This document shows positions 2,605-47,896 of a DNA stretch of 64,000 nucleotides, piece by piece. The translations under genes and the position numbers were made by a program. Numbering within the stretch: the stretch's first letter is position 1; each line of letters starts with the position of its first letter. Below the pieces are notes generated by a model that saw only the letters and a list, made by a program, of their open reading frames with translations, did no database searches and was not told the DNA's origin. The DNA is from Selenomonas ruminantium (GTDB lineage Bacteria; Bacillota; Negativicutes; Selenomonadales; Selenomonadaceae), in assembly GCA_002373045.1 (NCBI GenBank), contig DFHU01000022.1, forward strand, positions 8,077 through 72,076. Reading direction: 5' to 3'.

Positions 2605-4234
<1,630 letters not shown>

Positions 4235-4284
4235 AAGTGGCGAAAGTCCTTATATATCAAGGCTTTGTGGAAAATAAAATAGCA

Positions 4285-4304
4285 TTTGGCCACTTTTTGG
4301 CCAC
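4285..4304 (+). promoter_or_regulatory. Integrase arm-type sites (TTTGGCCAC x2)
   Basis: Tandem TTTGGCCAC at 4285 and 4296; the same tandem pair occurs at 47743 and 47755 inside attR. Confidence 0.7.
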
Positions 4305-4306
4305 AT

Positions 4307-4346
4307 AAAAAAGGGGATATCTTTCTTAGGAAGGGTATCCCTTTTT
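4307..4346 (+). terminator. Phage-supplied terminator for groESL
   Basis: aaaaggggatatctttc-ttag-gaagggtatcccttttt. Confidence 0.75.
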
Positions 4347-4457
4347 GCTAGTATTTGATATTGCCAATGAAATTATTCGCGAAAAAGGAAGGAATGGAGA
4401 ATATTTTGACGAAATTATATTATAATATATGATATAGCTGGTGTTTTCATAGCGAGG

Positions 4458-5315
4458 GTGAAATCTGTGAGAATCAACTATGACAGAAAGTTTTCAAATG
4501 GAAGATCGGCGTTTGAAAATATTGCTGACTTACAAAATAAAATATTAAATGCAGTGGATGATGACATAGATGTATATTTAATTGGTTCTGTTAGATATGG
4601 AAAAGCGTTCATATTTTTGTTAGGCTGTTTAATAGTTTTAGGAATGCAATATGGTAAACGAATTCGATTGTATCTGCCAGATAAGCACGTTATGGAACAT
4701 TTTCGCGCAATGGGAATATTAGATTATTATAGACAACAGAAACGCAACTCAAAAAATTTTTTCAGGCTTGACAAAACATCTAATGCAATGAGGCTGGTTG
4801 AGAAAAATATATACGAACTTCCTATTCATATGACAAAAAAATCTCAAGAAATATTACTTTCTCTTATAGGTGAGGTTTATAATAATGCGATAGAGCATTC
4901 TGAGGCAAAATATGTTATGGGTGGTTGTTATAAAAAACAAGGGAAAAAGAAATTATATTTTTCATGTTATGATACAGGAATTGGAATTGTAGGATGTGTA
5001 AGAAAAGCTTTAGGGAATATTGCATTGTCCATTGAAGATTACGATTTTAACAAGAGGATTATTAAATGGGCATTGCGACGAGGTACTTCAACAAAGCCAC
5101 CTCCAAGAGGATTAGGATTAGATTGGCTTTTAGATTTTGCTAGATTGAACCATGGCAGAATTACAATTTGTTGTTCGAATGTCGTTTTTGTACAAAATCC
5201 ATCAGGAGAACATAACTTTTCAAGATTGCAAAATAAATTTCAAGGGACTTTCTTTGAGATGGAAATTATTGAAGATAAAAATGTATTGTATCGATTAAGA
5301 GGTGAAGAGATATGA
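4458..5315 (+). CDS. Degenerate STAS + GHKL/HATPase (RsbW-like kinase) protein
   Basis: N-box EVYNNAIEHS, G1 YDTGIGI, G2 RGLGL, G3 QGTFFEM; N-terminal STAS-like pattern. Confidence 0.8.
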   Translation: MKSVRINYDRKFSNGRSAFENIADLQNKILNAVDDDIDVYLIGSVRYGKAFIFLLGCLIVLGMQYGKRIRLYLPDKHVMEHFRAMGILDYYRQQKRNSKNFFRLDKTSNAMRLVEKNIYELPIHMTKKSQEILLSLIGEVYNNAIEHSEAKYVMGGCYKKQGKKKLYFSCYDTGIGIVGCVRKALGNIALSIEDYDFNKRIIKWALRRGTSTKPPPRGLGLDWLLDFARLNHGRITICCSNVVFVQNPSGEHNFSRLQNKFQGTFFEMEIIEDKNVLYRLRGEEI

Positions 5316-5671
5316 CAAGTACAATAATGGTATCGGAATATATAAAAAGTGGCTTTTCGCCGGAAGATGCTAATAAGATGGTACCTATTATTGATAATGC
5401 ACTTAAAGAACTGGCAGATGGCGAAATGATAATGCTTGATTTTACAGATGTGAAATTTTTTACAACACTGTTTTTTAATCTTACCTTGGGAAGACTTTTG
5501 AATCAAATGTCTATAGACGAATATGATAAAAAAATAAAATTAATAAATTTATCTGATGTTGGTAATGTTGCATATCAGCATTCTTTGGACAATGCGAAAA
5601 GAAAGATTGCGATTGGTAGTGAAGAGAAAGATGCTCGCACTCGCATTTTAGAGGAACTTATGCAAGAATAA
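5312..5671 (+). CDS. STAS-like DUF4325 protein
   Basis: IMLDFTDVKFFTTLFFNLTLGRLL pattern; ATGA overlap with upstream gene. Confidence 0.8.
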   Translation: MTSTIMVSEYIKSGFSPEDANKMVPIIDNALKELADGEMIMLDFTDVKFFTTLFFNLTLGRLLNQMSIDEYDKKIKLINLSDVGNVAYQHSLDNAKRKIAIGSEEKDARTRILEELMQE

Positions 5672-5684
5672 TGAGGTAAGTTTT

Positions 5685-6221
5685 ATGGTTAAATTACTTT
5701 CGTCAGTAGATTGTAATGAAATAGATGAGAATGAAACTTTTTTTGTAGACACAAATGTGTTATGTGCAGTACATTTTCATACATCTTCATGGAGCAATAA
5801 CAAAGTTAATGCATATTCGTCTTTTTTAAGCTCGTTATTATTAAAGAATATAACATTATATGTATCGTCTTTAAGCCTCCAAGAGTTTTATCATTTAATA
5901 GAAAAAACTGAGCGTAAAATCTATGAGGCGAATAATGGTTCGATAAGTAAAAAAGATTTTAGGAGAAATAAAGTGGAGCGTGCAAGGATAGCTAATGAGT
6001 TACAATTAATTCATAAACAGATAGCTGGTCAGTATACTTTAATAGATGATGTTATAGATGTGGATGATGTTTGTAATTTTGTCAATCAGTATACTTCTCA
6101 TGCCTATGACCCTGTTGATTTCGCAATTGTAAATCATCACGCGTCCAATTGTTCAAATTTCATTACGGATGATAGTGACTTTAAATTAGATTCGAATATC
6201 ACGGTATATTCATATACATAA
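5685..6221 (+). CDS. PIN-domain ribonuclease
   Basis: FFVDTNVL, SLQEF, DPVDFAI, FITDDSDF acidic catalytic set. Confidence 0.85.
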   Translation: MVKLLSSVDCNEIDENETFFVDTNVLCAVHFHTSSWSNNKVNAYSSFLSSLLLKNITLYVSSLSLQEFYHLIEKTERKIYEANNGSISKKDFRRNKVERARIANELQLIHKQIAGQYTLIDDVIDVDDVCNFVNQYTSHAYDPVDFAIVNHHASNCSNFITDDSDFKLDSNITVYSYT

Positions 6222-6279
6222 CTTATGAGAAGTGAAATTCAATAGAACTGCAAATACGGGGATGTGAGATAATACTTCT

Positions 6280-6337
6280 GTAATAACAAAGGCGGTCCGC
6301 TTACTCGAAAGAGTTGGCGGACCGCTTTTGTTATTAC
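6280..6337. terminator. Long bidirectional hairpin terminator between PIN operon and int
   Basis: gtaataacaaaggcggtccgc / gcggaccgcttttgttattac 21-bp stem capped by actc-GAAA-gagt. Confidence 0.75.
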
Positions 6338-6395
6338 GAATATCGGATGGTTTATCGTTTATTATCTATATGAGAAATCCGCAACCGGGTGCGGT

Positions 6396-7577
6396 TTAGT
6401 TTTGTGAGGGAATGGACTGCATGAGGTTGGTGAATAGGCGGCAAGCCTCTTTCTTGCGGTGCTGGGTAACATGGAGATACACCTTTTTAGTCGTTTCGTC
6501 GTCTGTTTGGCCAACACGGTCCATGATTTCGTGGAGTTGTACGCCTGCCTCAGCCAGTAAGGAAATATGGGTGTGGCGGAAAACGTGGGGCGTTATCCGC
6601 GTATTGATGGGGAGCTGGGCCAAGGCCATCAACCTATCAATGCGGAGCTGCACGGCTTTTTGTGTGCGCGGGTAGCCGTGACGGGTGACGGCAGGAAAAA
6701 TAAAATCATAATCAGAGTGCCAGTTATCAGCCCAGCGCATTTTTTCAAGGACATATTCATGCCGCCAACTCTTTAAGGCGGCGATAACCTCAGCGGGAAT
6801 ATCAATCACCCGGTAGCCGGCTGTGGTTTTTGGTGGGAGTAGGGTGTAATGTTCGGCCCTGTTATCCGGCGTATAAAGCGTTTTGGAAATGCTTACCGTG
6901 TGTTCTTCCATATCGATATCCTGCCAGGTGAGGGCCAGCAGTTCGCCTATCCTCATTCCTGTATAGGCCAGCAGCATAAACATGGCATAATCACCGGATA
7001 GGCCCTCTTTGCGGGCAAAGGTAAGGAAAGTATACAAGTGTTCCTTTTCAAGGTATGGCGGCACCTTCTCAATTTGCTGTATGCTGCGGGACTGCCGGCG
7101 GGGTGGTTTGGCATATATAGACGGATCCTCTTTAATAACCCGGTACTGGCAAGCGCGCTTGAATACCATACGGGCGGCGGTGTGCGCCCCGCTTATCGTG
7201 TTGGCGGCAAAACCGCTTTTGGTAAGTGTGTCCAAAGCGGCCTGATAAATTTTAGGCGTAATAGATTGTATGGGCGCATTGCCAATACATTCACACATAA
7301 GGGCCAGTTGGTGCTTGCGGATGCGTACAGAGCTGATTTTGACATTGAGCGCATAGCTTTCTAACCATTCGGCGGAAAAATCACGGAAGGAAATATCATT
7401 GATGGGGACAAATGCGTGTCGATCCAGCGCGGTTTGTTCTTCAGCGGCAGCAAGTTGGGCGGCACGTTTCGTCTTAAATCCACCCCGCTGTATTTCAATC
7501 GGTTTACCAGTTTGCGGATTGGTGCCCGCCTTTATGCGGAAATACCATTTATCCCCGCGTTTGCGGAACGATGCCAT
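6396..7577 (-). CDS. int: Tyrosine integrase with N-terminal arm-binding domain
   Basis: MASFRKRGDKWYFRI start; TGMRIGE, PPKT, HVFRHT, VYLH; second catalytic His position reads GQ. Confidence 0.93.
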   Translation of the reverse strand: MASFRKRGDKWYFRIKAGTNPQTGKPIEIQRGGFKTKRAAQLAAAEEQTALDRHAFVPINDISFRDFSAEWLESYALNVKISSVRIRKHQLALMCECIGNAPIQSITPKIYQAALDTLTKSGFAANTISGAHTAARMVFKRACQYRVIKEDPSIYAKPPRRQSRSIQQIEKVPPYLEKEHLYTFLTFARKEGLSGDYAMFMLLAYTGMRIGELLALTWQDIDMEEHTVSISKTLYTPDNRAEHYTLLPPKTTAGYRVIDIPAEVIAALKSWRHEYVLEKMRWADNWHSDYDFIFPAVTRHGYPRTQKAVQLRIDRLMALAQLPINTRITPHVFRHTHISLLAEAGVQLHEIMDRVGQTDDETTKKVYLHVTQHRKKEACRLFTNLMQSIPSQN

Positions 7578-7674
7578 AAAATCACAACCTTTCAGCAGGG
7601 ACGGCCTTTTTATATAACAAATATGAAGGCGTATAAAGTTTGACAATACACGCAAAACATGATAACATTGCAGT

Positions 7675-7805
7675 ATAAAGAAATCACAGAGGGCGGAACT
7701 GGCAGCCGCCGCCGGATGGCCGCAAGGCTTGATTAGGAGATGCAGGATAGTCACCCTGCCTTGATTTCATCGTGGGAGGCGTAACCTTATGGTTGCGCCT
7801 TTTTC
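7675..7805 (+). ncRNA. Putative structured ncRNA convergent with PBECR nuclease gene
   Basis: TTGACA(7640)-17-TAACAT(7663) with extended TG; closing stem 7680-7686/7762-7768 enclosing three hairpins; terminator 7777-7805. Confidence 0.55.
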
Positions 7806-8161
7806 GTATGCGCTTTTAAGTAACCGCCGTCTGCATACTGCTTAAACTTCCATTCTTCAAAGGTAAAGATTGTCCGGGCAAAGGCATTGCCCTTAGTGGA
7901 AACCCGGACACCTATTACAACATGCTTATCAATGGTCTTGATATACTTGATAGAGTTGTCCCTGGGATTCAGATTTACATAATCTGGAGCGGCCAAAATA
8001 TCTTCCAAATGGTCAAAATAATTTTGGTAATCCTCCGGATGACTTTCCTGCATGTGTTTGATATTGGATTCACCGAGCAATATGGGCGTACCTGCAGGCA
8101 GGGAAAGCCCCAATAATTCAATGGCCTTTTCGTCGATGATGCCGACTTGTCTTGCTTTCAT
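7787..8161 (-). CDS. PBECR (Barnase/EndoU/ColE5-D/RelE-like) nuclease-fold protein
   Basis: NIKHMQESHPEDY...EDILAAPDYV..NP..NSIKYIK pattern. Confidence 0.65.
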   Translation of the reverse strand: MKARQVGIIDEKAIELLGLSLPAGTPILLGESNIKHMQESHPEDYQNYFDHLEDILAAPDYVNLNPRDNSIKYIKTIDKHVVIGVRVSTKGNAFARTIFTFEEWKFKQYADGGYLKAHTKKAQP

Positions 8162-8173
8162 GATAATCCTTTC

Positions 8174-8230
8174 TCACAATTCCCGCCTGACCTCAATAAC
8201 CCGGCCTATAATCTTTACGAGCAAGTCCTT
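8174..8230 (-). pseudogene. C-terminal remnant of an S24/LexA-type repressor
   Basis: Translates KDLLVKIIGRVIEVRREL*, resembling the terminal strand of S24 repressors. Confidence 0.55.
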
Positions 8231-9101
8231 ATTTTTTGATTGGTGTGGAATTGTGGGGGAGTGGTTTGATTTGTTCCTTCTCAACCTGTTTTATGCTTTT
8301 TGTCGGTGTAGGAAGGTTTTCCGGCATTGTACCGCCTAGCTCTGCAATGGTTTGGCGCACTTTGCGGCCTACATCAAAGTGAGCCTGGTTCGCGGCCTGC
8401 CTGCCGTGGATATTCTCTCGGCGTAATTTCTCCTCTGTCTGGGTGGCACGGAAAAGATTTGCCGCAAGTTCGGTGCCGCTCATATAGTCAAGGATTTGCT
8501 GGTCTTTCTGTAGCCCCTTGCGGGCATGAATACCCTTAGCAGTAAGTCCGCCATATAATCCCTTATAGCCTTCATCCTGAAAAACAGCATACTCAAAGCC
8601 TTGCTCAATTCCGGCAGCTTTTGCGGCATTGGCAAGCATTTTATTACGTTCTTTCATCTGTTGCCGTATAGCCAACCGTTTAGCATCTTCACTAAGCTCG
8701 CCGCATTGCTCAAAGATTTCCTGTTGGCGTGTTTTGACCGCAAAATAGGTTTGTGCCATAGCAATGGCCTTCTTGCGCGGATCACCATTCATGGCGATAA
8801 GGTAGCAGGCATAGCGGGAAAGATGGTAATCTGGAATTTCTTTTACGCCACCATTGGGCATTGGCGATGTTTTGCCGACGTCGGCAAAATGTTCGGAAAC
8901 CTTGTTACCGCTGGCTTCACAGGATATCATTGCGCGCTCGATGGTTTCGGAAAAACGACGCCATTGTTTATACCCCAGCACCGGCATAAGTTCCCGTGCT
9001 GTCCAGTATTCGCATCCTGTTTCGTCTGTATGCTTAATAGATTCAAAAGCAGATTCACCCTGCGCTATTGCATTATCATCAAAGAAAAAGAAAAAGAACA
9101 T
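8229..9101 (-). CDS. dinD: DNA damage-inducible protein D (Bro-N containing)
   Basis: EYWTARELMPVLGY, LSRYACYLIAMNGDPRK, ELAANLFRATQTEEKL, GGTMPENLPTP. Confidence 0.9.
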   Translation of the reverse strand: MFFFFFFDDNAIAQGESAFESIKHTDETGCEYWTARELMPVLGYKQWRRFSETIERAMISCEASGNKVSEHFADVGKTSPMPNGGVKEIPDYHLSRYACYLIAMNGDPRKKAIAMAQTYFAVKTRQQEIFEQCGELSEDAKRLAIRQQMKERNKMLANAAKAAGIEQGFEYAVFQDEGYKGLYGGLTAKGIHARKGLQKDQQILDYMSGTELAANLFRATQTEEKLRRENIHGRQAANQAHFDVGRKVRQTIAELGGTMPENLPTPTKSIKQVEKEQIKPLPHNSTPIKK

Positions 9102-9249: not shown

Positions 9250-10029
9250 CTAATCGTCAAGGCTTCCTGCTTGAAAATATTTTTCTTTTATCAAGGTACA
9301 TATTTCGGTCAATATAAACTCTGGCACGCATACGCCATACAGTTCATCAGACTGTTTTACTGGTGTGATGATTCTTTGCTTGCTAACAGTGGTTATTTGG
9401 CGTGTGTCAACAATAGAGCCTTTATTCATCTTTTGCGATAAGGATATTAAAGGCATAATTCGCTGTTGCAGCTTACGCTCAAACTCCTGCAAGTATATGG
9501 GGAGTTGCGCCATTTGCTCATCTTTATCGAGCTTTCGCAATTCATCAATGGAGTCCATAGCATCTTGATATGGTGCTTTGGCCAGTTGGACAGAGGCTTT
9601 TTCGATAATAAGCTGGGAAATAGGGATAGGCAACTCATATTCCCCAGGGCGCAGGCCTCGCTCAGCGTGTTTAGGCTTTTTGGAAACCATCGGGATGATG
9701 GTTATAAGCCCATCTTTTTTGCGGTTGTCGTTGTCCAATACTATGCCATAGTGCGGGCCACCGAGTTCGTGCCCTATACGGAAACCGAGATTTACAAAGA
9801 CAATCTGCCCACGCTTGTAATTAGGCAAGTATGAGGGGTGGAAGGTTTTCTCATTCTTCACATAGCGGATATACTGCCGCAACCACATAACAAACTTTAC
9901 TGACCAATCATAATTCTGCCTTACTTTTTCTTTTATGAAACTGGCGTATTCGCGGAATACAGACCGACGAAAGTGCCTAAAATCTGCGCTATTTGCTTTG
10001 TCGCGCAAATGGTTCTTACTAAAATCCAT
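9250..10029 (-). CDS. PemK/MazF-family toxin (long form)
   Basis: YKRGQIVFVNLGFRIGHELGGPHYGIVL...IIPMVS...QITTVSKQRI. Confidence 0.8.
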   Translation of the reverse strand: MDFSKNHLRDKANSADFRHFRRSVFREYASFIKEKVRQNYDWSVKFVMWLRQYIRYVKNEKTFHPSYLPNYKRGQIVFVNLGFRIGHELGGPHYGIVLDNDNRKKDGLITIIPMVSKKPKHAERGLRPGEYELPIPISQLIIEKASVQLAKAPYQDAMDSIDELRKLDKDEQMAQLPIYLQEFERKLQQRIMPLISLSQKMNKGSIVDTRQITTVSKQRIITPVKQSDELYGVCVPEFILTEICTLIKEKYFQAGSLDD

Positions 10030-13736: not shown

Positions 13737-13806
13737 TTATCACCTCCACGATGGAGGTTCGACATCAGCAGGATAACTCCTGCCGAGAAAGGAGACATAA
13801 ACCATG
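13737..13806. repeat. 70-bp bidirectional expression repeat, copy 1
   Basis: 66/70 identical to 14578-14647. Confidence 0.92.
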
Positions 13807-14577: not shown

Positions 14578-14647
14578 TTATCACCTCCACAATGGAGGTT
14601 CGACACCGGCAGGATAACTCCTGCCGAGGAAGGAGACATAAACCATG
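14578..14647. repeat. 70-bp bidirectional expression repeat, copy 2
   Basis: 66/70 identical to 13737-13806. Confidence 0.92.
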
Positions 14648-47879: not shown

Positions 47880-47896
47880 GCCGGGCATGATGTAAT
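47880..47896 (+). repeat. attR core (displaced groEL 3' end)
   Basis: GCCGGGCATGATGTAAT followed by terminator 47915-47943. Confidence 0.93.

What the first reader, a model, noticed from the sequence alone, without database searches (positions are those of the whole stretch)
4386..6337. Kinase-STAS-PIN tripartite cargo between attL and integrase: candidate partner-switch-controlled RNase defence system
Seen: an AT-rich, tightly coupled operon in a moron position, bounded by terminators and preceded by a SigH-like AGGA-17-GAAA element. It encodes a STAS+GHKL protein (all four ATP boxes), a DUF4325 STAS protein (Thr-Thr at the usual phosphoacceptor position) and a PIN nuclease with intact acidic residues. 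No VapB-like antitoxin or sigma factor is present. Known: RsbW/RsbV-type GHKL-STAS pairs act as phosphorylation switches that normally hold a sigma factor, PIN domains are toxic RNases, and att-proximal cargo is often anti-phage. Inference: the switch has been rewired to hold or release an RNase (abortive infection or phospho-controlled TA). I do not recognise it as a named system.
Basis: partly seen in the sequence, partly recalled or inferred. Interest (0 to 1): 0.85.

Follow-up and report, generated by a model that had tools for sequence, protein, structure and literature searches.

The report
Prophage-carried VapKSC kinase-switched toxin
[quoted passage not shown] Here a kinase likely phosphorylates an antitoxin to free an RNase toxin, and the main difference from the published system is an arginine where that kinase has its DNA-sensing phenylalanine.

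Summary
The triad matches VapKSC (Chambers et al., EMBO J 2026, PMC13373217), a lead from an earlier scan note on other DNA (not this triad) that I then tested.

The PIN and DUF4325 proteins hit Escherichia VapC and VapS in PDB 9Z7O (E 9e-15 and 1e-8). D22 aligns to catalytic D28 and T52 to phosphoacceptor S48. The kinase model has STAS plus SpoIIAB-type GHKL folds. Kinase-STAS-PIN order holds in 50 of 51 usable loci.

It is a true moron in a 43.7-kb prophage integrated at the 3' end of groEL. None of 4 elements with related integrases carries it. The SigH promoter claim is not above chance; a sigma-70/SigA-like site fits better.

One difference: the aromatic residue that the paper links to single-stranded-DNA sensing and shows is needed for defence (VapK F54) is Arg46 here. 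This marks a clade of 50 kinases (44 Arg/Lys), paired with Thr-type VapS in the loci checked. It likely works as VapKSC; whether the trigger is the same is untested. Low interest.

The parts
4218..4234 (.). attL core (17 bp) covering the 3' end and stop codon of groEL (2605-4233)
   Evidence: Exact repeat at 47880-47896. Joined attP form in L028. Contigs of run X9 continue from 4234 into sequence like that after attR, i.e. the empty site.
4309..4346 (.). Terminator-like hairpin between groEL and the cassette
   Evidence: -22.8 kcal/mol, z -4.5; also listed
4406..4433 (+). Sigma-70/SigA-like promoter candidate TTGACG-16-TATGAT (predicted only)
   Evidence: 10 of 12 matches, tied best of 20 sites in 3000-8500
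4458..5315 (+). vapK: STAS (1-92) plus anti-sigma-type GHKL kinase (99-275); probable start at 4467; Arg46 in place of VapK Phe54
   Evidence: Model pLDDT 87. Top VIA hits SpoIIAB 1l0o_A (Z 11.6, rmsd 2.7, 128 aligned) and STAS 1sbo_A (Z 9.9, rmsd 2.3, 91 aligned). ATP boxes invariant. R46 mapping.
5312..5671 (+). vapS: DUF4325 STAS antitoxin with C-terminal helix; T52 equals VapS S48
   Evidence: Pfam PF14213 E 2.5e-10. PDB 9z7o_A E 9.9e-9, ungapped around T52. T52 and residues 105-116 in the predicted VapC interface.
5685..6221 (+). vapC: PIN-domain RNase toxin; D22 equals catalytic D28
   Evidence: PDB 9z7o_C E 9.4e-15 over residues 16-176; invariant acidic residues
6280..6337 (.). Strong hairpin between the convergent vapC and integrase, likely a bidirectional terminator
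   Evidence: -44.6 kcal/mol, z -10.6
6396..7577 (-). Tyrosine integrase of the prophage
   Evidence: PF00589 E 5.6e-24; phrog_1
47880..47896 (.). attR core; the prophage spans 4218-47896 (about 43.7 kb) with terminase, portal, capsid, tail sheath, baseplate and endolysin genes

Best explanation
The cassette is a divergent VapKSC toxin-antitoxin module carried as an accessory gene block by a temperate phage, and it likely protects the lysogen against other phages by stress-triggered growth arrest. Shown here: the three genes, their homology to the published proteins, intact catalytic residues, conserved gene order, and insertion into a slot that is empty in related phages. [quoted passage not shown] Least certain: the trigger is probably still single-stranded DNA bound between the kinase STAS and GHKL domains, with Arg46 and a lysine-rich hairpin (K159, K160, K163-K165) doing what Phe54 and K180/K181 are predicted to do in Escherichia VapK.
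For: Best PDB hits of both small proteins are Escherichia VapS and VapC of 9Z7O. T52 aligns with S48 and D22 with D28; the paper reports that S48A, D28A and F54A each abolish defence. A profile of the window's kinase clade aligns end to end with a profile of kinases bearing the Escherichia-type motif (hhalign probability 100, E 6e-46, 274 columns). L008, fetched with the window's kinase alignment (29% identity), carries the same isolate name as a row of the paper's Dataset EV3. Order kinase-STAS-PIN within 1.2 kb in 50 of 51 usable loci. VapC-VapS model: score 0.81 against best control 0.03, runs agree in at least 92% of contacts, partner pLDDT at least 84; the mark was reached by 116 of 157 solved complexes and 2 of 215 mismatched pairs. 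That pass may reflect likeness to the solved 9Z7O complex. Moron status: the slot holds one hairpin in L028 (integrase region 94% identical), and a contig of run X4 skips 4313-6372.
Against: The column of VapK F54 is Arg here and Arg/Lys in 44 of 50 clade members, against F/Y/W in 92 of 106 others. No experiment exists for this clade. In the paper, ssDNA activation of VapK was itself not tested biochemically, and protection was about 2 logs against one phage. Only 103 of 289 published loci lie near other defence genes. A DNA-damage-triggered toxin on a prophage that may itself be induced by DNA damage needs some way to avoid self-poisoning, and none was identified.
Confidence: 0.75

Rival explanations
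1. It has the same toxin-antitoxin wiring, but the Arg/Thr clade has changed its sensor: the kinase responds to another ligand (RNA, a specific phage nucleic acid or a protein) rather than generic ssDNA.
For: A clade-wide swap at the column the paper shows is needed for defence. The loop is remodelled, with R46-x-G48 and new conserved F51 (42 of 50) and F53 (47 of 50). All 33 full-length loci without an aromatic at that column have Thr in VapS, and all 9 aromatic ones have Ser.
Against: Arg binds nucleic acid well (general knowledge). The K181-equivalent K163 is kept and the clade is more basic (median net charge +3 against -1). The Arg/Thr pairing is one inherited event, not independent covariation. 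Aromatic-type copies also sit beside recombinases (9 of 9), so a sensor change is not needed for life on a prophage.
Confidence: 0.2
2. Its main role is for the element itself, not defence: a stress-gated toxin that stabilises the prophage or dampens its induction or lytic output.
For: It sits next to att and the integrase. Relatives often lie beside recombinases. A prophage toxin-antitoxin system tuned by phosphorylation controls phage output in Pf4 (PMC13048266, search listing and abstract start only).
Against: Near-identical phages lack it (L028; run X4), so it is dispensable for the phage life cycle. The family's only tested member is anti-phage. A recombinase was found near only 3 of 33 full-length Thr-clade loci, though many contigs are short.
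Confidence: 0.12
3. It is a decayed or inactive cargo.
For: It lacks the F54 aromatic. The one RNA-labelled run laid had a single 179-nt contig on the triad, which shows neither expression nor silence.
Against: All three frames are open with every catalytic residue kept. The same substitution is shared by a 50-member clade. A contig from another study spans 4210-7151 at about 96% identity.
Confidence: 0.04

Closest known systems
VapKSC (VapK-VapS-VapC), Chambers et al., EMBO J 2026, PMC13373217; PDB 9Z7O
   Same: Three-gene order; STAS+GHKL kinase with no HTH; STAS protein with a short C-terminal helix and Ser/Thr phosphoacceptor; VapC-like PIN with D28 equivalent; direct sequence homology to the crystallised VapS and VapC.
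   Different: Arg46 at the Phe54 column; Thr rather than Ser (the paper allows both); carried as a prophage moron, which the paper does not discuss for vapKSC ('prophage' occurs once in the main text, about another system); no Selenomonas row in its supplements.
CapK-CapS (same paper)
   Same: STAS+GHKL kinase phosphorylating a STAS partner.
   Different: CapK has an N-terminal HTH, CapS has a wHTH and represses transcription; there is no toxin partner.
SpoIIAB-SpoIIAA and RsbW-RsbV partner switches
   Same: Kinase fold (1l0o_A, Z 11.6) and STAS fold.
   Different: They control a sigma factor; here the kinase carries its own STAS domain and the output is a nuclease.
PIN.4 cluster of Matelska et al. 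2017 (PMC5499597)
   Same: A table row notes PIN proteins transcriptionally coupled to DUF4325 genes (one passage seen).
   Different: Function was given as unknown and no kinase was noted; I did not test membership in that cluster.

Membership tests
VapKSC | Three-gene operon in the order kinase, STAS, PIN | tested here: met
   conserved in 50 of 51 usable loci
VapKSC | VapK is STAS + GHKL with no N-terminal HTH and an intact N-box Asn | tested here: met
   Model and VIA search; N143 invariant in 156 of 156
VapKSC | VapS is STAS plus a short C-terminal region with a conserved Ser/Thr (S48) | tested here: met
   9z7o_A E 9.9e-9; T52 aligns to S48
VapKSC | VapC-like PIN with catalytic Asp (D28) | tested here: met
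   9z7o_C E 9.4e-15; D22 aligns to D28
VapKSC | Aromatic residue at the predicted ssDNA site (F54; a mechanistic feature, not the paper's search criterion) | tested here: not met
   R46 in that column by MAFFT and by hhalign, using L021/L022 as stand-ins for the Escherichia motif. Y47 is adjacent but is Tyr in only 9 of 50 clade members. This is why it is filed as a variant.
VapKSC | VapS binds VapC with the phosphoacceptor in the interface | tested here: inconclusive
   The prediction supports it (0.81 against 0.03; T52 contacts VapC residue 112) but may reflect likeness to 9Z7O
VapKSC | VapC toxicity, VapS rescue, VapK-dependent phage protection | not testable with these tools
   needs bench work
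CapKS | HTH on the kinase and wHTH on the STAS partner | tested here: not met
   The kinase model starts with the STAS fold at residue 1; the partner is 119 aa and matches VapS, not CapS
Anti-sigma partner switch (SpoIIAB/RsbW) | Cognate sigma factor in the operon | tested here: not met
   The third gene is PIN here and in 50 of 51 related loci

The most novel reading that the evidence does not exclude
The Arg/Thr clade of VapKSC (50 of 156 kinases in the tree, mostly from gut metagenomes in the loci fetched) has replaced the ssDNA-stacking aromatic with a remodelled R-x-G loop and senses a different danger signal. A temperate phage could then carry the system without being poisoned by the DNA damage that induces it.
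Probability: 0.15. Interest if true: 0.55.

Novelty: new variant of a known kind. Interest (0 to 1): 0.25.

Why it matters
The system class was named, crystallised and shown to be anti-phage in 2026, so this locus mainly extends it to a prophage moron. It adds two modest points. First, a well-supported subclade lacks the residue thought to sense single-stranded DNA, which gives a natural test of the paper's untested activation model. Second, vapKSC often sits beside phage integrases, which raises the question of how a prophage tolerates a DNA-damage-gated toxin.

Tried and rejected
PADLOC 2023 gave no hit for any of the three proteins (it predates VapKSC). NCBIfam gave only weak histidine-kinase and unrelated hits. 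tblastn of the PIN against the plasmid and phage collections found nothing, nor did the single-protein viral scan.

The SigH promoter was rejected as chance. No LexA/Cheo-type box (consensus recalled) was found in 4314-4460. Foldseek on the kinase model gave only mixed GHKL hits; VIA resolved both domains.

Distant kinase hits (L010, L023-L025, L098-L106) were dropped; L010 is a hybrid histidine kinase and L023-L025 look like HTH-GHKL-STAS fusions. RNA evidence is uninformative: contigs only, one small piece on the triad.

Paper search was swamped by unrelated uses of 'STAS'. Searches did not list the VapKSC paper. Dataset EV3 gives only gene ids, so I could not tell whether the authors' 289 loci include Arg-clade members; no VapS alignment text was found in the supplements. 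The kinase-VapS complex and ssDNA binding were not modelled. The weak integrase hit in G060 was not fetched.

Full report
Observation. The three ORFs are present and tightly coupled at 4458-5315, 5312-5671 and 5685-6221, with GC 0.31 against 0.49 for the genome. Hairpins flank them at 4309-4346 and 6280-6337. A 17-bp core at 4218-4234 repeats at 47880-47896 and defines a 43.7-kb prophage in the 3' end of groEL, with head, contractile-tail and lysis genes. The genome holds a single copy of each gene. The proposed SigH element exists but is not above chance (5 found, 3.05 expected), and a 10-of-12 sigma-70-type site overlaps it. The host is probably a Selenomonadaceae gut bacterium; this is inferred from the label of the closest named kinase homolog and the habitats of runs that hold the DNA.

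Moron status. An integrase search of 201 genomes of the family gave 6 hits, the window's own included. I fetched the 4 closest others. All carry the same att core, three directly after groEL and L028 in the joined attP form. None has the triad: three have no gene between att and integrase, and L029 has an HTH plus IrrE-type peptidase pair. In L028, whose integrase region is 94% identical, a single hairpin replaces about 2 kb; a contig of run X4 shows the same skip, and a contig of run X9 from another study carries the whole cassette in place. The PIN gene was found in 1 of 100 other related genomes, there beside a serine recombinase-like gene and an HTH gene (L032).

Identity. An earlier scan note named Chambers et al. 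2026. I read parts 1-4 of 12 of its text, sections 13, 14, 16, 28 and 33, the whole appendix and all of Dataset EV3. [quoted passage not shown] VapC was toxic, VapS rescued it, S48E or C-terminal deletion abolished rescue, and the operon gave about 2 logs of protection against phage Bas42 that was lost in D28A, S48A and F54A. ssDNA activation of VapK was predicted, not shown. The window's PIN and STAS proteins have Escherichia VapC and VapS (9Z7O) as best PDB hits, with D22 on D28 and T52 on S48. So the second Thr of the Thr-Thr pair is the likely acceptor. The kinase model (pLDDT 87) matches STAS proteins over residues 1-92 and SpoIIAB over 99-275. The VapC-VapS prediction scored 0.81 against a best control of 0.03, with T52 and the C-terminal helix in the interface; a like complex is solved, so this shows likeness only. 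A search for the name found only this paper and its preprint. DUF4325 occurs in 3 papers, one noting PIN-DUF4325 coupling in 2017.

Conservation. Of 100 loci examined, 13 had weak or no kinase hit, 22 had under 900 bp downstream and 14 were duplicates. Of the 51 left, 50 show kinase-STAS-PIN in order within 1.2 kb; L094 has an interrupted kinase and no PIN hit. L033, identical to the window, and the repeat viral loci L108-L119 were not included. The STAS and PIN profiles were built from some of these same loci, so those rows match by construction. The kinase profile hits 349 clusters at E up to 1e-30 and 1,592 at 1e-10; their neighbourhoods were not checked. The kinase also matches an unannotated phage family, phrog_3364. 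A recombinase ORF lies within about 600 bp in 9 of 9 Ser-type loci (7 of them from viral contigs, so biased) but was found near only 3 of 33 full-length Thr-type loci, using five recombinase queries on often short contigs.

The difference. Counting by eye, the appendix sequence of Escherichia VapK has its N-box Asn and KK pair five positions below the paper's N160 and K180/K181. That offset puts F54 at the Phe of the HCRF motif in the STAS loop. L021 and L022 share this motif and served as stand-ins. Both MAFFT and hhalign (ungapped there) place window R46 in that column, and the model puts R46 in the loop between strand 36-41 and helix 49-64. In a tree of 156 kinases (the query, 16 locus proteins and 139 of 161 candidates of 255-335 aa), a clade of 50 with FastTree support 1.0 has Arg/Lys in 44; the other 106 have F/Y/W in 92. 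Among 42 full-length loci, 33 pair a non-aromatic residue (28 Arg, 2 Lys, 3 other) with Thr, and 9 pair an aromatic with Ser. The second locus search used an alignment of this clade, so it is over-sampled, and the pairing is one inherited event. The K181 equivalent (K163) is kept in the window protein and the clade is more basic, so ssDNA binding remains plausible. I found no mention of this clade in the parts of the paper read, but could not check the authors' loci by sequence.

Mechanism and verdict. Most likely (0.75) VapS holds VapC inactive until VapK, activated during infection or DNA damage, phosphorylates T52 and frees the RNase, arresting the cell. Homology and context are shown here; binding is predicted; toxicity, phosphorylation, trigger and protection are inferred from the Escherichia system. 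Rivals are a changed sensor (0.2), a role in prophage control (0.12) and decay (0.04); the first overlaps the main reading in all but the trigger. It meets the paper's operon definition and fails one mechanistic residue, so I file it as a new variant of a known system, with interest 0.25.

Noticed in passing
L028:4200-5922 (G008:C19): The closely related phage that lacks vapKSC carries a diversity-generating retroelement (reverse transcriptase plus bAvd); that stretch has no nucleotide match in the window.
   Followed up: partly
L029:4351-5252 (G056:C89): A different cargo between the groEL att and the integrase: HTH plus IrrE/M78 peptidase pair.
   Followed up: partly
window 7787-8161, 8229-9101, 9250-10029 (- strand): More accessory genes between integrase and repressor: a PBECR3 nuclease-like protein, a Bro-N protein and a PemK/MazF-like protein.
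   Followed up: no
window 13737-13806 and 14578-14647: A 70-nt direct repeat at 94% identity ending in a ribosome-binding site and start codon, in the early region.
   Followed up: no
window 6377-6399, 16111, 17971, 23382, 26790: A 23-nt palindrome-like family of 5 copies spread through the prophage, one just after the integrase stop.
   Followed up: no
PMC7924643, table rows Fhv_0046-0048: Francisella phage KIRK lists a 293-aa hypothetical, a 112-aa DUF4325 and then a 125-aa membrane protein near its integrase (one passage). It could be a kinase-STAS pair with another third gene.
   Followed up: no
L094:1768-3002: A relative with an interrupted kinase frame, a STAS gene and no PIN hit.
   Followed up: no
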